This document shows, piece after piece, positions 1,990 to 7,566 of a stretch of DNA of 7,721 bases. Source of the DNA: a virus. Lineage: Duplodnaviria; Heunggongvirae; Uroviricota; Caudoviricetes. Within the stretch, counting starts at the first letter, position 1; every line of letters starts with the position of its first letter. The notes beneath the pieces are model-generated. The model was not told the origin of the DNA, did no database searches, and saw only the letters and a program-made list of their open reading frames with translations. The stretch lies in IMG/VR virus record IMGVR_UViG_3300039313_000002; one strand, 5' to 3'. The position numbers and the translations under genes are program-made.

Positions 1990-2174
1990 TGTGCACATCC
2001 TTTTGGCATCAGACGTAAACGAGCCAGCATTGAAACAATGCATATTTTATTTAATAGCTCCCGTTCTTGTTTTCTCTTGTTAATGGCATCTTCAGTAAAT
2101 ACAGGGTTACTGATAGTGACACCAATTTCAAAACAACCTTCAGACGTATTAACGTTTGGTAATAACGTTTTCAT
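1986..2174 (-). CDS. Small hypothetical protein (62 aa) of the leftward early operon
   Basis: ATG at 2174 preceded by GAGGA at about 7 nt spacing; stop overlaps the next start (ATGA). The track ORF 1986..2279 begins at an upstream GTG with no RBS. Confidence 0.5.
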   Translation of the reverse strand: MKTLLPNVNTSEGCFEIGVTISNPVFTEDAINKRKQERELLNKICIVSMLARLRLMPKGCAQ

Positions 2175-2344: not shown

Positions 2345-2388
2345 AAAACGGCGGCAGAGCAGTCACGGAGTAAAACTGATACCGCCAA
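2345..2388 (-). terminator. Candidate hairpin plus U-tract on the minus strand (possible internal attenuator/terminator of the leftward operon)
   Basis: Minus strand reads GGCGG-(26 nt loop with nested CAGT/ACTG)-GCCGCC followed by GTTTTTAAA. Long loop makes this a weak candidate. Confidence 0.2.
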
Positions 2389-2660
2389 ACGTCACCAGAA
2401 AATTGATAACAGAGGGCGTTGCAGCGGGGTTGTCACTTAAGCGTATGGTCAACCTGACAACCCGGTGTCCTCAACGGGGAAGGAATAACCCCGCCATACT
2501 TACCGCCGCGCCATTTTGCGGGTTGCCACAACCGGAAGCGCACGGTCGAATTAAATTTAACGACACCGTACAGTGAGACGAACTTCGCCGTGCGCTTTCG
2601 TGTTGTGTGCCTGCTTTTAACCACGTCAGGCGAGGTGGTATCCTTAAAATCACCACAGTT

Positions 2661-3561: not shown

Positions 3562-3969
3562 TTATTTTATTGATTTATTTTTACGCGCTTTAAGCATTTC
3601 TTCGAAGAGTTTGTTGAAGTTTTCTACTCTTGCGCGCATTTCAGACAGCAAGGCTTCCTGCTCGGAAGATGGAAGAGCATCGAATAATTCGATCAATTCT
3701 TTGTGGTTGGGAGTTAGCTCTGTTTCCACATGAAGTTCTTGTGCAGGCACTGGTGCCTTGTCTTCGTCACCAAACATTAGCCATGTAGGTGAGCACTTCA
3801 GAGCATCCGCTAAAGCAAACAATCGTTTTCCGACTGGCTGGGTTTCGTCTCTTTCCCATTGTGAAATTGTGACGTGAGCAACTCCAGCGAGGCGCGCAGC
3901 TTCTCGTTGTGTTAAGCGTAATTCTTTTCGTCGCGCCAGAACTCGCTGGCCTAGGGTTCTTGTATCCAT
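3562..3969 (-). CDS. Prophage repressor, DicA/CI-like HTH (XRE family), 135 aa
   Basis: HTH segment LTQREAARLAGVAHVTISQWER, followed by FALADALKCSPTWLMFGDEDK and a C-terminal EMRARVENFNKLFEEMLKAR, which I recognise from memory as the DicA-type repressor pattern. Divergent from a Cro-like gene and flanked by palindromic operators. Weak SD, possibly translated from a short or leaderless transcript. Confidence 0.85.
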   Translation of the reverse strand: MDTRTLGQRVLARRKELRLTQREAARLAGVAHVTISQWERDETQPVGKRLFALADALKCSPTWLMFGDEDKAPVPAQELHVETELTPNHKELIELFDALPSSEQEALLSEMRARVENFNKLFEEMLKARKNKSIK

Positions 3970-4036: not shown

Positions 4037-4048
4037 AGAGGGGCTTTG

Positions 4049-4276
4049 ATGCTTAAAGTTGACGCAATTACTTTTTTTGGCAGCAAAACAAAGCTTGCCA
4101 ATGCCGCAGGAGTGAGACTGGCAAGTGTTGCTGCTTGGGGGATACTGGTTCCTGAAGGTCGCGCGATGCGTCTACAGGAGGCATCTGGCGGGGAGCTTCT
4201 GTATGATCCCAAGGTTTATGACGAATATCGTAAGACGAAGCGGGCGGGGCGGTTGAACAATGAAAATCACTCCTGA
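4049..4276 (+). CDS. Cro-like DNA-binding protein of the DicC/YdaS family (75 aa)
   Basis: Divergent from the repressor; ATG at 4049 with AAGAGGGG 5 nt upstream (the track's 4046 start is a TTG one codon earlier). Sequence FFGSKTKLANAAGVRLASVAAW...EGRAMRLQEASGGEL is typical of YdaS/DicC-type Cro analogues as I recall them. Confidence 0.8.
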   Translation: MLKVDAITFFGSKTKLANAAGVRLASVAAWGILVPEGRAMRLQEASGGELLYDPKVYDEYRKTKRAGRLNNENHS

Positions 4277-4781
4277 ACAGGCTCGTGAGGCTCTGGATGC
4301 CTGGATATGTCGACCAGGAATGACACAGGAGCAGGCGACGATATTAATCACTGAAGCATTCTGGGCTTTGAAAGAGCGCCCGAACATCGATGTTCAGCGT
4401 GTCACAGATGAAGGTGGCGCGGTTGATCAGCGAGCGCTTGGCGTTAATCGAGTGAAGATATTCGAACGCTGGAAGGCTATCGACACCAGGGATAAGCGTG
4501 AAAAGTTCACGGCGCTAGTGCCTGCAATTATGGAGGCTATCCGGATTAATGATTTCAGGTTGTATCGTGAAATTAGTGACGGAAAAAGCATCACGTACAT
4601 GATCGCCGGGTTAAACAAAGAATATGGCGATGTGGTGGAGTCCGGACTGCTTTTTGCTGATCCTGCCGTAGTGGATCGTGAAACTGACGAACTTATAGAA
4701 AAAGCAATTGCTTTCAAACTTGCGTATCGACAGCAATACCAACAAAAAGCTGGATGGAATTATGAGCCTTCTTTTTGCTGA
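4260..4781 (+). CDS. YdaT-family protein (173 aa), occupying the cII-like position
   Basis: Immediately follows and overlaps the Cro-like gene by 17 nt; central segment KIFERWKAIDTRDKREKFTALVPAIMEAI matches the conserved core I recall for YdaT-family proteins (often annotated as toxin YdaT). Confidence 0.7.
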   Translation: MKITPEQAREALDAWICRPGMTQEQATILITEAFWALKERPNIDVQRVTDEGGAVDQRALGVNRVKIFERWKAIDTRDKREKFTALVPAIMEAIRINDFRLYREISDGKSITYMIAGLNKEYGDVVESGLLFADPAVVDRETDELIEKAIAFKLAYRQQYQQKAGWNYEPSFC

Positions 4782-5727
4782 ACGCCCACTGGTTATAAAC
4801 ACACAGCTTGCGATGAAGATTGGCTTAAATGAAGCCATTGTGTTGCAGCAGTTGCATTACTGGTTGAGAGATACCAATTCCGGCATGGAATGTGATGGTG
4901 TTCGCTGGATTTACAACACAACGGAACAATGGTTGGAACAGTTCCCATTCTGGTCAGAGTCAACGTTAAAGCGCGCGTTTGCAAGTCTGAAAACGCTGGG
5001 GCTTTTGCGTTGTGAAAAGCTCAATAAATCAAAGCGCGATATGACCAATTTCTACACGATTAACTATGGGAGCGAGCTTTTAGATGATGGCAAATTGAGC
5101 GAATCCATCGGTTCAAAATGCGCCGCTCCATCAGGTCAAAATGACACGATGGAAGAGGTCAAAATGAAACGCTCCATTGGTTCAAAACGACCCAATGTCA
5201 TCGGGTCAAAATGGCCCGATGATCCTACAGAGAATACAACAGAGATTACTACAGAGAATAAAAACACTTTTCGTCCGGAAGCTTCGCAACCGGACCCGCA
5301 GACGGCTGAACAGGATTTTTTAATCCGGCACCCTGGCGCAGTTGTGTTTAGTGCGAAAAAACGCCAGTGGGGTAGCCAGGAGGATCTGGCGTGTGCGCAG
5401 TGGATATGGGGGCGGATCGTGGGTCTCTACGAACAGGCCGCCAGTGATGATGGCGAGATCATGCGACCAAAAGAGCCTAACTGGACTGTCTGGGCCAATG
5501 ATGTGCGCACAATGCGGATGCTGGATGGCAGAAGCCACAGACAAATTTGTGAAATGTTTGGTCGGGTACAGCGGGATCCATTCTGGGTAAAAAACATCAT
5601 GAGCCCGTCAAAGCTCCGCGAAAAATGGGACGAACTGGTCATCCGCCTGGGGCGTTCACCTGTACAGCGTTGTGTTAATCATATTTCTGAACCGGATACA
5701 GAAATTCCGCCTGGTTTCAGAGGATAA
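4762..5727 (+). CDS. Phage replication initiation protein (lambda O-like / replisome organiser), 321 aa
   Basis: ATG at 4762 with GGATGG upstream, 20-nt overlap with the preceding gene (alternative in-frame ATG at 4708 lies inside that gene). N-terminal region LLFAERPLVINTQLAMKIGLNEAIVLQQLHYWL looks like a replication-initiator N-terminal DNA-binding domain; the gene contains iterons and an A-rich tract internally, as lambda O does with ori-lambda. Confidence 0.75.
   Translation: MSLLFAERPLVINTQLAMKIGLNEAIVLQQLHYWLRDTNSGMECDGVRWIYNTTEQWLEQFPFWSESTLKRAFASLKTLGLLRCEKLNKSKRDMTNFYTINYGSELLDDGKLSESIGSKCAAPSGQNDTMEEVKMKRSIGSKRPNVIGSKWPDDPTENTTEITTENKNTFRPEASQPDPQTAEQDFLIRHPGAVVFSAKKRQWGSQEDLACAQWIWGRIVGLYEQAASDDGEIMRPKEPNWTVWANDVRTMRMLDGRSHRQICEMFGRVQRDPFWVKNIMSPSKLREKWDELVIRLGRSPVQRCVNHISEPDTEIPPGFRG
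5101..5213. repeat. Five direct iterons at ~23-bp spacing, core GG(T)TCAAAA(T/C)G (iteron cores 5106-5120, 5129-5143, 5152-5166, 5175-5189, 5199-5213); putative replication origin inside the initiator gene
   Basis: Direct repeats read from the sequence: catcggttcaaaatg, catcaggtcaaaatg, gaagaggtcaaaatg, cattggttcaaaacg, catcgggtcaaaatg. They encode the reiterated IGSK/SGQN peptide segment. Confidence 0.6.
5226..5265. repeat. A-rich tract with three ACAGAGA repeats at exact 12-bp period (5227-5233, 5239-5245, 5251-5257), adjacent to the iterons; possible DNA-unwinding element of the origin
   Basis: TACAGAGAATAcaACAGAGAttacTACAGAGAATAAAAAC read directly; placement just 3' of the iterons parallels the lambda ori layout. 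Confidence 0.45.
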
Positions 5728-5767: not shown

Positions 5768-6169
5768 GTGGCAAAAGTTTTTACACAAGAAGAGCGGGAA
5801 AAAATTAAAGGGCAGGTGGTGGAACTCGTGCGCCAGAGCGGTCGTGAGACGTTACGGCAACTGGAAGCTAAAACAGGTGCGACTAGATATCTGATGAGCG
5901 TTCTTGCCAGAGAGCTGGTAGCCAGTGGCGATGTATACAACTCCGGCTACGGGTTATTCCCGTCTGAACAGGCGCGTAAGGACTGGCAAAACGCCCGCAA
6001 AAAACTCTCGAGGGCAAAGGTGAAGAAAACAGCTGTGGTTGATCCGGACGTTATCTGGTCGTTACCTGATGGAGAAATACGTCGCTACGACAGTCGCCTA
6101 AACATAATCTGTCGCGAGTGCCGGATGAGTGAAGTTATGCAGCGCATACTGGCATTTTATCAGGGATAA
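5768..6169 (+). CDS. Hypothetical protein (133 aa), basic, possible helix-turn-helix; sits where a helicase loader would be expected
   Basis: GTG start at 5768 with strong RBS AAGGGGG 5 nt upstream; stop TAA at 6167-6169; segment TLRQLEAKTGATRYLMSVLAREL resembles an HTH. No family recognised. Confidence 0.6.
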   Translation: MAKVFTQEEREKIKGQVVELVRQSGRETLRQLEAKTGATRYLMSVLARELVASGDVYNSGYGLFPSEQARKDWQNARKKLSRAKVKKTAVVDPDVIWSLPDGEIRRYDSRLNIICRECRMSEVMQRILAFYQG

Positions 6170-6387: not shown

Positions 6388-7566
6388 TTAAGTCTGAGCC
6401 TCACTCTCTTGGCCATAAGTGGCTTGCCAGTATCTCGCCGTAGGGTTCATTAGAATGTGCAATACAAGCCACCATGCAAAAATGCAGGGAGGTTGATTGT
6501 AGTAACCGGCAGGCACATATCCGTGAGCTAGTTGATTTCGTAAATCACCATAGATTTTATCTACCAGTAAGGCCTGAAGATTGCCAATTATGTCTACGCC
6601 GAAAGCTTCAATAATCAGTGGATTATCTAGTAATCCCTTGAGTCCATTTCGCTCTTGCGAACCGTCCCCGTGAAGCTGCGATGGTTCCTCACCTTTAATT
6701 TTAGCCACATATCTCAGACTATTTTCGAGCTGGGGAATCAACACGTGGCATGCCGTCATAAAATCTCCATTGAAACCGCAAACCATACCCTTGATGAAAA
6801 ACTCTTCATGCCCAAACGGGATGAAGGGATGATTGATGAACATATCGCGAAAAAACGCCTCCGAGATTGGATATTTCATTGTGATCTCATCTGTAGCAGG
6901 AATAATTTGCCCAGCTACTGCCAACTCATGGTCGATACGCATTCTCGTCATCATTATGGGCCAAATAACTGCCCCATTTGCATCATCAATCCCCAATCCT
7001 GCGGGTATGCGAGCAAGTGTCATTCCCTCATGATCAATATGTGTTGATCCAAACATCCAAGCTATGCTGTTGGCCTTTTGTTCTATTGCTTGAGCCTTAA
7101 GTCTCTCAATGCTGGTTGGCCGACAGACCAGCATCGCAAGTCTGAAAACCATATCAAACAAATCTCTTCCGACTACCCGACTCTTGGCTTGATGGACAAT
7201 CTCACTAATATCTTGAGGGGGAGACTGAAGGATAGACATCTGGTGACGGGATTCGATTTGGTAATCACGCATTTCTTCATACAGCGCAAGACGTTCTATT
7301 CGGGTTCCTGGAATATTAGCCAGTGCTTCAATAGCATTCTGCATGCAGGCTGCCGAAATCATACCGCCATCTTGGAATTTTGACTCTTCCAGATGTGTAT
7401 CGGCAAGAAGCCGCCAGAATTCAAACTGTGTATCTCTGTCACAGCACCTATTCGCAATCGGGATTGCGGTTTTACAGGCATCGACGGCAAATGAAAATAA
7501 TTTTTGAGCCAGATAGTTTTTTGTCAGAAACAGGAGTTCCTGGGCAATAAAAGATGGCTCACTCAC
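6388..7566 (-). CDS. Hypothetical 392-aa protein with C-terminal R-x4-H (HEPN-like) motif; candidate abortive-infection / defence or toxin cargo (moron)
   Basis: Long uninterrupted minus-strand ORF convergent with the phage rightward operon. First in-frame start is GTG at 7566 with no obvious SD; the next ATG is at codon 69, so the start is uncertain. Motif LRNQLAHG at residues 342-349 (plus 6523-6540) matches the RNxxxH signature of HEPN-type RNases; a second R-x4-H (RMRIDH) lies at residues 208-213. All three minus frames hit stops within 7690-7721, so the gene does not extend out of the window. Confidence 0.7.
   Translation of the reverse strand: MSEPSFIAQELLFLTKNYLAQKLFSFAVDACKTAIPIANRCCDRDTQFEFWRLLADTHLEESKFQDGGMISAACMQNAIEALANIPGTRIERLALYEEMRDYQIESRHQMSILQSPPQDISEIVHQAKSRVVGRDLFDMVFRLAMLVCRPTSIERLKAQAIEQKANSIAWMFGSTHIDHEGMTLARIPAGLGIDDANGAVIWPIMMTRMRIDHELAVAGQIIPATDEITMKYPISEAFFRDMFINHPFIPFGHEEFFIKGMVCGFNGDFMTACHVLIPQLENSLRYVAKIKGEEPSQLHGDGSQERNGLKGLLDNPLIIEAFGVDIIGNLQALLVDKIYGDLRNQLAHGYVPAGYYNQPPCIFAWWLVLHILMNPTARYWQATYGQESEAQT

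What the first reader, a model, noticed from the sequence alone, without database searches (positions are those of the whole stretch)
5101..5265. Replication origin embedded in the initiator gene: five 23-bp iterons plus a 12-bp-periodic A-rich tract
Five direct repeats with core GGTCAAAATG at ~23-bp spacing are followed by three ACAGAGA repeats at exact 12-bp spacing in an A-rich stretch. The layout mirrors ori-lambda (iterons plus AT-rich region inside gene O) but with a different iteron sequence and period. The repeats are imprinted on the protein as reiterated IGSK and TTE(N/I) peptides.
Basis: partly seen in the sequence, partly recalled or inferred. Interest (0 to 1): 0.55.

Follow-up and report, generated by a model that had tools for sequence, protein, structure and literature searches.

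The report
Phage replication origin inside initiator gene
The repeats are real and are almost certainly a lambda-style replication origin built into a prophage's own initiator gene; its short 12-base repeat turns out to be kept letter-for-letter in related phage genes across many bacterial phyla.

Summary
Five 23-bp semi-palindromic repeats (5106-5221), with a degenerate sixth at 5083-5105, are followed by three ACAGAGAWTACW units (5227-5262). All lie inside an E. coli prophage gene (4762-5727) that PHROG 391 classes as "replication initiation O-like". The repeats encode a predicted disordered linker between a winged-helix N-domain and a helical C-domain. The layout is that of ori-lambda. The protein, however, is not a detectable lambda-O (PF04492) or RepA_N member, and no P/DnaC-like loader gene follows it.

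Comparative data support a DNA-level function. Third-codon positions are as conserved as first and second positions in the iterons. Iteron sequence follows the N-domain, not the C-domain. The 12-mer tract is the least stable stretch of the gene.

Unexpectedly, the same 12-mer array (core CAGAGAnTAC) sits directly after 46 unrelated iteron classes, in homologous initiator genes from Proteobacteria, Bacillota, Cyanobacteria and other phyla. Its synonymous positions are fixed: GAG 102 versus GAA 0. It also occurs without any initiator ORF on plasmid pBSG3. I found no description of this motif.

Verdict: an ordinary kind of origin, with a probably undescribed conserved unwinding or loading element. 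Origin function is not shown experimentally.

The parts
4762..5727 (+). Initiator gene (321 aa + stop). Its ATG at 4762 overlaps the end of the upstream cII-like/YdaT gene (4260-4781).
   Evidence: ORF list. phrog_391 'replication initiation O-like', E 3e-92. Annotated as replication protein O / O-like in 97%-identical phages. No Pfam family.
4762..5064 (+). N-terminal winged-helix-like domain (residues 1-101), the presumed iteron-binding module.
   Evidence: The AF2 model gives H-H-b-b-H-H-b-b at pLDDT 56-74. The best Foldseek PDB hits are staphylococcal RepA N-terminal domain / Rep-DNA complex 4pql/5kbj (E 0.02, target TM 0.55). The profile hits only wHTH proteins, weakly.
5083..5105 (+). 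Degenerate upstream (sixth) iteron copy, GATGATGGCAAATTGAGCGAATC.
   Evidence: In register, 23 bp before iteron 1 (family D2). The corresponding copy is a good GGTCAAAGTG iteron in mEp460_4F5 and in Klebsiella phages.
5106..5221 (+). Five 23-bp iterons (5106-5128, 5129-5151, 5152-5174, 5175-5197, 5199-5221) with core GGTCAAAATG. Copies 2, 4 and 5 are semi-palindromic.
   Evidence: Third-codon-position conservation is 0.80, against 0.62 in the N-domain, across 50 related sequences. Natural 93-bp deletion variants remove iterons 1-4.
5227..5262 (+). Three tandem 12-mers ACAGAGAATACA / ACAGAGATTACT / ACAGAGAATAAA (core CAGAGAnTAC), the presumed unwinding/loading element.
   Evidence: It is the least stable 36-bp window of the gene. 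The same array follows 46 unrelated iteron classes in many phyla. Synonymous sites are fixed.
5273..5295 (+). GC-rich imperfect inverted repeat GTCCGGAAGC-TTC-GCAACCGGAC, just right of the A-rich tract. It is a possible counterpart of the palindrome on the right of ori-lambda.
   Evidence: Read from the sequence. The predicted hairpin is in the 12th percentile of the gene in the 97%-identical HannyBb copy (L001). Similar repeats are enriched only modestly across classes (19 of 84 in the lowest decile, p 7e-4). Weak evidence.
5308..5673 (+). C-terminal helical domain (residues 183-304), an exchangeable module presumed to recruit the host replication machinery.
   Evidence: AF2 pLDDT 60-83. phrog_2357/277/2514 'O-like' / 'DnaD-like helicase loader' hits. 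C-domains of tract-bearing genes fall into many unrelated families.
5662..5724 (+). C-terminal tail (residues 301-321, ...EPDTEIPPGFRG), resembling the last 21 residues of primosomal protein DnaT.
   Evidence: NCBIfam DnaT positions 160-179, E 0.006. PDB DnaT chains 2ru8, 6aep and 9zbt, E 0.013-0.04. The IPxGFRG end is conserved in relatives. Weak, short match.

Best explanation
This is the vegetative replication origin of a lambdoid (mEp460/HannyBb-like) E. coli prophage, written into the linker-coding part of its own initiator gene. Shown: the anatomy, the DNA-level constraint and the comparative pattern. Inferred by analogy with ori-lambda and with RepA_N plasmid origins: (1) dimers of the N-terminal winged-helix domain bind the five or six 23-bp semi-palindromic iterons and assemble a wrapped nucleoprotein complex; (2) the stress opens the adjacent, least stable 36-bp array of CAGAGAnTAC 12-mers; (3) the conserved 12-mers are probably read sequence-specifically, most plausibly as single strands by a conserved surface of the initiator, as lambda O, plasmid Rep proteins and DnaA do with their unwinding elements; (4) the exchangeable C-terminal domain, here ending in a DnaT-like tail and with no phage P/DnaC-like gene downstream, brings in host DnaB-DnaC. 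Step 3 and the route in step 4 are the least certain.
For: Gene identity and context: cI-like, Cro, cII-like, O-like order; phrog_391, E 3e-92. Repeats. The repeats lie in a predicted disordered linker (residues 101-175, pLDDT below 45) between two folded domains. The N-domain model resembles the iteron-binding RepA N-terminal domain. RepA_N iterons are described as semi-palindromic repeats converging on a poly-A tract (PMC7145576), the design seen here. DNA-level constraint on the iterons: conservation at codon positions 1/2/3 is .81/.84/.80, against .84/.90/.62 in the N-domain. Specificity linkage: pairs with C-domain at least 80% identical but N-domain below 40% share no iteron 7-mers (J 0.0003, n 37); pairs with N at least 80% and C below 40% share them (J 0.40, n 54). 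The tract is the gene's stability minimum (dG -39.8 against a mean of -49.4 kcal/mol, z 2.6). Tract conservation: more than 240 loci, about 95% in the same frame and context, across 46 iteron classes with periods of 21-24 bp and ORF GC of 29-61%. A synonymous-degenerate scan finds 113 exact loci, 4 variant initiator loci and 3 unrelated hits. In an N-domain-selected sample, 60 of 78 genes carry the array, with GAG 102: GAA 0 inside against 326: 648 outside. Position 8, a second codon position, is free while third positions are fixed. The same iteron+tract module exists without an initiator ORF on pBSG3. A Proteus-type relative joins this N-domain, iterons and tract directly to a lambda-like right arm and C-terminus, so the tract occupies the place of lambda's AT-rich region. 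Lambda background comes from PMC7466680: origin in the middle of O; O binds AT-rich single-stranded DNA.
Against: There is no experimental evidence for origin activity, iteron binding or unwinding in this family that I could find. The AF2 model has low confidence (mean pLDDT 55) and the fold matches are weak (E 0.02). The iteron/N-domain association is confounded by physical linkage, because crossovers at the conserved tract would produce it anyway. In low-GC hosts the tract is not unusually unstable (50th-77th percentile), and 18 of 78 relatives have fewer than two recognisable units (two that I inspected keep a degenerate AT-rich stretch). The exact motif therefore cannot be strictly required for melting. 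No partner that reads the 12-mer is identified. No loader gene follows, so helicase recruitment is conjecture resting on a 21-residue match.
Confidence: 0.78

Rival explanations
1. The repeats are only a low-complexity, slippage-generated protein linker, with no function as DNA.
For: The segment encodes a predicted disordered linker. The array is read in one frame in about 99% of loci, so the peptide is not irrelevant. Unit number varies from 2 to 6.
Against: Third-codon positions are fixed while first and second positions vary (I/N/T/S at position 8, T/P at position 1). GAA is never used, although it is the majority Glu codon elsewhere in the same genes. The iterons lose the usual third-position relaxation. 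A 23-bp period cannot be a peptide repeat, since it shifts frame at each copy. The module also persists outside any initiator ORF on pBSG3.
Confidence: 0.03
2. The iterons are initiator-binding sites used for autoregulation, copy control or exclusion of related phages (decoy or 'Per'-like titration). The true origin lies elsewhere in the prophage.
For: Iterons in plasmids also serve copy control (own knowledge). An orphan iteron+tract module on the RCR plasmid pBSG3 could act as a decoy. Variants with iterons 1-4 deleted are found in the database.
Against: The iterons are coupled to the gene's stability minimum in the same order as ori-lambda. A lambda-type right arm can replace what follows. 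The arrangement is kept across 46 specificity classes. No other iteron array was found in the window, though the window is only 7.7 kb.
Confidence: 0.07
3. The 12-mer array is conserved mainly as a shared recombination joint that lets phages swap N-domain/iteron modules with C-terminal modules, or for some RNA-level role, rather than as an unwinding element.
For: Breakpoints coincide with it. Klebsiella phages share the window's sequence only up to about 5257. L114 combines foreign iterons with the mEp460_4F5-type (78%-identical relative's) C-terminus. There are 37+54 discordant N/C pairs. Pantoea AH07 matches the window only over 5199-5295.
Against: Second-order selection for recombination is unlikely to fix 9 of 12 bases across phyla and a GC range of 29-61%. 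Its position, strand and polarity match lambda's AT-rich region. No Rfam family and no promoter or terminator signal lies there. This reading is not exclusive of the best explanation: a functional conserved element would act as a crossover hotspot anyway.
Confidence: 0.12

Closest known systems
ori-lambda within gene O of phage lambda and lambdoid or Stx phages (O/P system)
   Same: The origin lies in the middle of the initiator gene, in the linker between the DNA-binding N-domain and the recruiting C-domain. It has 4-6 iterons about 20-24 bp apart, with dyad arms around a TCAAAA-type core (lambda ATCCCTCAAAACGAGGGA; here CATCGGGTCAAAATGGCCCGATG). An A-rich, low-stability tract follows on the same side and strand, and then a GC-rich inverted repeat (PMC7466680).
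   Different: The N-domain has no detectable homology to lambda O (no PF04492 hit; hhalign probability 0.2%). Lambda's AT-rich region lacks the CAGAGAnTAC 12-mers. No P-like or DnaC-like gene follows; the next gene is DUF977/Ren-like. The C-terminus ends in a DnaT-like tail.
RepA_N theta-plasmid initiators of Gram-positive bacteria (pSK41, pTZ2162 RepA) and Vibrio PLE RepA
   Same: The best structural matches of the N-domain model are 4pql/5kbj. [quoted passage not shown] In many RepA_N plasmids the iterons lie inside repA (own knowledge, Weaver et al. 2009, not re-read here).
   Different: No PF06970 match in any of 27 diverse members. The fold match is weak and rests on a low-confidence model. 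I know of no report of the 12-mer array in RepA_N replicons, and this was not tested.
Gram-positive phage 'replisome organizers' with internal origins (SPP1 G38P/oriL; lactococcal TP901-1/Tuc2009-type; Pfam Phage_rep_org_N, Phg_2220_C, DnaB_2)
   Same: These are two-domain initiators whose gene carries direct repeats acting as the origin (own knowledge of SPP1 and TP901-1). Several tract-bearing relatives have Phg_2220_C or DnaD-like (DnaB_2) C-domains, and PHROG labels include 'DnaD-like helicase loader'.
   Different: No Phage_rep_org_N (PF09681) hit appeared among the Pfam results. The window protein's C-domain has no Pfam family.
Sequence-specific unwinding elements read as single strands (DnaA-trios at oriC; 13-mers of RK2/F/pPS10 bound by Rep proteins; lambda O binding AT-rich ssDNA)
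   Same: A short repeat array lies directly next to the double-strand initiator sites, on a fixed side and strand, and is conserved in sequence rather than only in AT content (PMC7466680 for lambda O-ssDNA; the rest is own knowledge).
   Different: The period (12 nt) and sequence (CAGAGAnTAC) match none of these. Binding to single-stranded DNA is purely hypothetical here.

Membership tests
Lambda O initiator family (Pfam PF04492 Phage_rep_O) | N-terminal domain matches the Phage_rep_O profile | tested here: not met
   No Pfam hit at E<=0.01 for the window protein or for 27 diverse relatives. Lambda O itself scores 5.7e-36 in the same scan. hhalign of the N-domain profile against lambda O residues 1-115 gives probability 0.2%.
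Lambda-type origin architecture | Several initiator-binding direct repeats inside the initiator ORF, between the N- and C-terminal domains | tested here: met
   Five or six 23-bp repeats at 5083-5221 lie within codons 108-154 of a 321-codon gene. They fall in the predicted disordered segment 101-175. Binding itself was not tested.
Lambda-type origin architecture | An A/T-rich, easily melted region immediately downstream of the iterons on the coding strand | tested here: met
   The 36-bp window 5229-5264 is the least stable of the gene (z 2.6). AT skew is 0.32. Orientation is the same as in lambda.
Lambda-type origin architecture | Iteron sequence is type-specific and follows the initiator's N-terminal domain | tested here: met
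   7-mer sharing follows N-domain identity and not C-domain identity in discordant pairs. This is correlative and confounded by physical linkage.
Lambda-type replication module (O plus P) | A helicase-loader (P-like or DnaC-like) or helicase gene directly downstream of the initiator | tested here: not met
   The next gene, 5768-6169, is DUF977 / Ren-like. HannyBb has no loader annotated in the following 5 kb. Other family members do have one (Staphylococcus phage 37 DnaC-like; an Stx1 phage helicase).
Lambda-type origin | The fragment supports initiator-dependent replication and the initiator footprints the iterons | not testable with these tools
   This needs cloning, EMSA or footprinting. 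No paper on this family's origin was found.
RepA_N plasmid initiators (PF06970) | N-terminal domain matches the RepA_N profile or fold | tested here: inconclusive
   No Pfam hit. Foldseek top hits are 4pql/5kbj at E 0.02, target TM 0.55, from a model with pLDDT 56-74 in that domain.
RepA_N plasmid initiators | Semi-palindromic iterons whose inverted arms converge on a poly-A tract | tested here: met
   Copies 2, 4 and 5 have arms of 9 nt (7-8 of 9 complementary) around AAAA. The feature is as described in PMC7145576.
PHROG 391 'replication initiation O-like' | Full-length match to the family profile | tested here: met
   E 3.1e-92, residues 17-321 against profile positions 11-298 of 298.
Primosomal protein DnaT (NCBIfam NF002770) | Whole-protein score above the curated cut-off (201 bits) | tested here: not met
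   16.3 bits, covering only the last 20 residues. The 'Primosomal protein I' labels in some phage records therefore rest on a tail motif.

The most novel reading that the evidence does not exclude
The tandem 12-mer CAGAGAnTAC is a previously undescribed, sequence-specific origin element. It is shared by a very large superfamily of winged-helix phage, prophage and phage-plasmid initiators across bacterial phyla. The iterons next to it diversify freely to give each phage its own specificity. The 12-mer stays fixed because it is read by something invariant, either a conserved surface of the initiator acting on single-stranded DNA or a universal replisome component. It would thus define a common melting or helicase-loading step, and a simple sequence tag for locating phage origins in any genome.
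Probability: 0.4. Interest if true: 0.75.

Novelty: new variant of a known kind. Interest (0 to 1): 0.55.

Why it matters
As found, this is one more lambda-style origin. It is useful for annotating a gene that matches in 3026 of 5426 complete E. coli genomes and is mostly labelled 'hypothetical'.

The wider result is more interesting. A 10-base DNA word inside a protein-coding gene is kept across phyla while everything around it changes. That pattern separates two parts of origin function: private recognition by variable iterons, and a common step at an invariant 12-mer.

If the 12-mer proves to be the unwinding or loading site, three things follow:
- a one-line pattern would locate origins in thousands of uncharacterised phages and phage-plasmids;
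- there would be a clean, synonymous-mutation test of how such initiators open DNA;
- modular exchange of initiator halves at that spot would be explained.

It also flags loader-less initiators with a DnaT-like tail as a possible route into the host restart primosome.

Tried and rejected
- **Rac oriJ as an experimentally known member.** Rac ydaU is DUF1376, a different family. Rejected.
- **Promoter, terminator or known RNA in the repeats.** None in 4900-5500. The only Rfam hit in the window is DicF, elsewhere.
- **Literature.** Full-text searches for ACAGAGATTAC/ACAGAGAATAC, for the TEITTE-type peptides and for several origin phrases returned only unrelated papers. The Weigel & Seitz review of phage replication modules is not held. 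Prior description therefore cannot be excluded.
- **The search for related loci with the window's N-domain first**. It returned only 97-100% identical E. coli prophages, which are useless for diversity. Repeating it with a Lysinibacillus-type sequence first worked.
- **First homologous-protein run.** It timed out and was repeated. All 120 listed hits are at least 68% identical, so the AF2 alignment was shallow and the model poor.
- **A universal hairpin right of the tract.** Enrichment is only modest and is strongest in enterobacterial types. It is kept as a weak, optional part.
- **A DnaA box, IHF site, -10 element or HUH nick site in the 12-mer.** Inspection found no convincing match. This is my own reading and was not tested statistically.
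- **The apparent lack of long ORFs in 1-2600.** This is an artefact of the ORF lister. A RecE-like exonuclease gene runs off the window's edge.
Full report
**1. What is in the window**

The window is an E. coli lambdoid prophage segment. The left 2.7 kb is 99.4% identical to phage HannyBb and carries a RecE-like exonuclease gene running off the edge, then the dicB/DicF region. The following genes come next:
- a cI-like HTH repressor, 3562-3969 (-);
- a P22-Cro-like gene, 4046-4276 (+);
- a cII-like/YdaT gene, 4260-4781 (+);
- a 321-codon gene, 4762-5727 (+);
- a DUF977/Ren-like gene, 5768-6169 (+);
- a DUF4209 gene on the other strand.

The 321-codon gene has no Pfam family. It matches PHROG 391 'replication initiation O-like' over its full length (E 3e-92). 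In 97%-identical phages it is annotated as replication protein O / O-like. It matches in 3026 of 5426 complete E. coli genomes, usually labelled 'hypothetical protein'.

**2. The observation**

Both arrays are real.
- Five 23-nt copies start at 5106, 5129, 5152, 5175 and 5199 (spacing 23, 23, 23, 24).
- Three 12-nt units have ACAGAGA at 5227, 5239 and 5251.
- The exact 10-mer GGTCAAAATG occurs three times, in phase, on one strand.
- A degenerate sixth copy lies at 5083-5105 and is a good iteron in relatives.
- Copies 2, 4 and 5 are semi-palindromic, with 9-nt arms around an A4 tract.

This is the design of lambda's iterons (ATCCCTCAAAACGAGGGA). It is also the design described for RepA_N plasmid iterons (PMC7145576). 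Lambda's own iterons start 20, 24 and 23 bp apart, so the period is not a point of difference.

Because 23 is not a multiple of 3, successive copies are read in different frames.

**3. Evidence that the repeats act as DNA**

(a) I compared 50 distinct related sequences with GGTCAAA-type iterons (38-100% identical to the window). Conservation at each codon position was as follows.

| Region | Position 1 | Position 2 | Position 3 |
|---|---|---|---|
| N-domain | .84 | .90 | .62 |
| Iterons | .81 | .84 | .80 |
| 12-mer tract | .98 | .89 | .95 |

The N-domain shows the normal coding pattern, with a relaxed third position. The iterons and the tract do not.

(b) The AF2 model has low confidence (mean pLDDT 55). 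It shows:
- a winged-helix-like N-domain (residues 10-101);
- a segment with no structure at all over residues 101-175, which is exactly the part encoded by the iterons and the tract;
- a helical C-domain, residues 183-304.

Its best PDB matches are the iteron-binding N-terminal domain of staphylococcal plasmid RepA, free and on DNA (4pql, 5kbj; E 0.02, target TM 0.55). Ordinary winged-helix regulators follow. Profile searches give only weak wHTH hits.

(c) The 36-bp window 5229-5264 is the least stable of the whole gene (nearest-neighbour dG -39.8 against a mean of -49.4 kcal/mol, z 2.6). It sits on the same side and strand as lambda's A-rich region.

(d) Natural variants exist. 290-aa proteins lack exactly 31 residues, which is 93 bp, the distance from iteron 1 to iteron 5. 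Others carry a fourth TENT unit.

**4. The unexpected part: the 12-mer is not private to this phage**

Pantoea phage AH07 has five 23-bp iterons of a quite different sequence (GAGGGCAAATTGCCCTCATC), followed by the same ACAGAGAWTAC array. I therefore scanned for ACAGAGAWTACWACAGAGAWTAC.
- In 122 of the 124 pattern-bearing sequences examined at that stage (the 120 scanned viral contigs plus L001, L002, L005 and the window), the array is read in the same frame (ACA GAG AWT ACW). It lies about 150-200 codons into a 250-470-codon ORF. Nearly all genomic loci show the same arrangement.
- The array directly follows 21-24-bp periodic repeats.

Among 172 distinct complete ORFs:
- There are 46 unrelated iteron classes. 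The periods are 23 bp in 28 classes, 22 in 10 and 21 in 4.
- The unit number is 2-6, and the ORF GC content is 29-61%.
- The N-terminal parts form one BLAST-linked family (170 of 172).
- The C-terminal parts fall into many families. Those recognised by Pfam are Phg_2220_C, DnaD-like DnaB_2, the DnaT DNA-binding domain and DUF6017.

Hosts named in the records include Enterobacterales, Acinetobacter, Pasteurellaceae, Vibrionaceae, Legionellales, Alphaproteobacteria, Arcobacter, Bacilli, Clostridia, Cyanobacteria, Chloroflexota, Fibrobacterota and Nitrospinota. Deposited phages of Staphylococcus, Bacillus, Acinetobacter, Burkholderia, Xanthomonas and Synechococcus, and Stx-converting phages, also carry the array, always under a 'replication initiation' type gene. 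A few hits are unrelated microsatellite-like repeats (a giant-virus MAG, an archaeal MAG, a Nostocales protein).

**5. Is that conservation at the DNA level or the protein level?**

There were two controls for the bias of an exact-pattern search.

First, I scanned with a pattern degenerate at all synonymous sites (ACNGARAWHACNACNGARAWHAC), which allows roughly a thousand-fold more sequences. Of 120 loci returned, 113 were exact. Only 4 further initiator loci appeared, each differing at one or two synonymous bases. The other 3 were unrelated hits.

Second, I took a sample chosen only by N-domain protein similarity to a Lysinibacillus prophage (54-75% identity). It gave 78 distinct genes, of which 60 have at least two units in the expected place. 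Over 110 units from 47 non-identical contexts:
- positions 3, 5 and 7 are invariant;
- position 4 is G in 108 units;
- position 6 is G in 103 and never A;
- position 9 is T in 99;
- position 8, a second codon position, is nearly random (A 44, C 47, T 17, G 2);
- position 1 is A or C.

The encoded peptide therefore varies (TETT, PETT, TENT, TEIT, TEST and others) while third codon positions are fixed. Inside the tract Glu is GAG 102: GAA 0. Elsewhere in the same genes it is GAG 326: GAA 648. The first Thr codon is ACA in 68 of 68 cases, against 218 of 699 outside. These p-values are inflated by relatedness, but the contrast is absolute.

The element is thus a DNA word, CAGAGAnTAC, repeated every 12 bp.

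In low-GC hosts the tract is not unusually unstable (50th-77th percentile), so AT-richness alone does not explain its conservation. Conversely, 18 of 78 relatives have fewer than two recognisable units, and two that I inspected keep a degenerate AT-rich stretch. The exact word is therefore preferred, not indispensable.

**6. Further support**

(a) The 8.4-kb rolling-circle plasmid pBSG3 and two sister plasmids carry four iteron-like repeats plus three perfect ACAGAGATTACT units. There are stop codons just upstream and no N-domain ORF. The module can therefore persist without being part of an initiator gene.

(b) A Proteus-type relative has this family's N-domain, iterons and ACAGAGA tract joined to TTCGTCGCAGAATTCTGGCGAATCCAGCGACCAGCC. 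That sequence is nearly identical to the palindrome-bearing right arm of ori-lambda. The tract thus stands exactly where lambda has its AT-rich region.

(c) Iterons follow the N-domain:
- 37 pairs with C-domains at least 80% identical but N-domains below 40% share essentially no iteron 7-mers (Jaccard 0.0003);
- 54 pairs with the opposite pattern share them (0.40).

This fits N-domain/iteron recognition and recombination at the conserved tract. Linkage alone could also give it.

**7. Mechanism proposed**

Shown: the anatomy, the DNA-level constraint and the comparative pattern.

Inferred by analogy with lambda (PMC7466680) and with RepA_N (PMC7145576):
- The N-domain dimers bind the iterons.
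- The complex stresses and opens the adjacent 12-mer array.
- The C-terminal module recruits the helicase.

Conjecture: the invariant 12-mer is read sequence-specifically, most simply as single-stranded DNA by a conserved surface of the initiator. The N-domain is the only partner common to all loci. Downstream genes range from none to DnaC-like loaders to helicases.

In this prophage no loader gene follows. The protein ends in 21 residues resembling the C-terminus of DnaT, which hints at entry through the host restart primosome or direct use of DnaB-DnaC. The match is short and weak.

**8. Comparison with known systems and novelty**

It works like ori-lambda. It is not a detectable member of the lambda O family, of RepA_N, or of the Phage_rep_org_N family, since none of these appeared among the Pfam hits. 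The O-plus-loader gene pair is also absent.

The general arrangement, an origin inside the initiator gene, is textbook. I could find no description of the conserved 12-mer or of origin function for this family. The searchable library is incomplete, however, and a key review is not held.

I rate the finding as a new variant of a known kind. The added value is the cross-phylum 12-mer, whose role can be tested cleanly by synonymous recoding.

Noticed in passing
window 5227-5262; loci L005-L245, L336-L415: The 12-mer array (core CAGAGAnTAC) recurs directly after 46 unrelated iteron classes in homologous initiator genes from many bacterial phyla. Its synonymous positions are fixed (GAG 102 : GAA 0) and a second codon position is free.
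   Followed up: yes
L417 (plasmid pBSG3, NC_014104.1) 720-841: An orphan origin-like module sits on an 8.4-kb rolling-circle Bacillus plasmid and two sister plasmids. It has four about 22-23-bp repeats (CCTACAGGGAAAGA type) and three perfect ACAGAGATTACT units, with stop codons upstream and no initiator N-domain. It may be a decoy or a hitch-hiking site for a phage initiator.
   Followed up: partly
proteins P0018-P0023 versus window 5106-5198: 290-aa variants of the initiator lack 31 residues, which is 93 bp, exactly the distance from iteron 1 to iteron 5. A single iteron is left. They are probably origin-defective cryptic prophages produced by recombination between repeats. P0100 has a fourth TENT unit.
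   Followed up: partly
window 5662-5724 and 5768-6169: No P/DnaC-like or helicase gene follows the initiator; the next gene is DUF977/Ren-like. The initiator's last 21 residues (…EPDTEIPPGFRG) resemble the extreme C-terminus of primosomal protein DnaT. This explains the 'Primosomal protein I' labels in some phage records.
   Followed up: partly
L013, L015, L036, L038 (Proteus-type prophages), about 10-50 nt after the tract: A chimeric initiator. This family's N-domain, iterons and ACAGAGA tract are joined to a right arm (TTCGTCGCAGAATTCTGGCGAATCCAGCGACCAGCC) nearly identical to that of ori-lambda, and presumably to a lambda-O-type C-terminus.
   Followed up: partly
window 5273-5295: An imperfect GC-rich inverted repeat, GTCCGGAAGC-TTC-GCAACCGGAC, lies just after the A-rich tract. 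Many enterobacterial relatives have a better one (GTCCGGTTGC…GCAACCAGAC), and several other classes have a short stem with a TGAC loop. Enrichment over controls is modest.
   Followed up: partly
window 4762-4781: The initiator's ATG lies 20 nt inside the end of the cII-like/YdaT gene (4260-4781). This suggests translational coupling.
   Followed up: no
window 2349-2400 (-): A full-length DicF antisense sRNA (Rfam RF00039, 72.5 bits) lies in the dicB-type division-inhibition region of the prophage.
   Followed up: yes
window 6388-7566 (-): A 392-aa DUF4209 protein matches only the C-terminal two-thirds (profile positions about 218-602 of about 600) of the PADLOC candidate defence protein PDC-S39 (E 3e-74). 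It may be a truncated or variant defence gene inserted after the replication genes.
   Followed up: partly
window 2146-2170: A short 13-bp tandem repeat (GTAATAACGTTTG x1.9, TRF score 43) of unknown meaning.
   Followed up: no
L201, L164 (Brocadiaceae and Legionellales MAGs): Two tract-bearing ORFs have an N-terminal region that does not BLAST-link to the main N-domain family. This may be a second initiator family using the same 12-mer.
   Followed up: no
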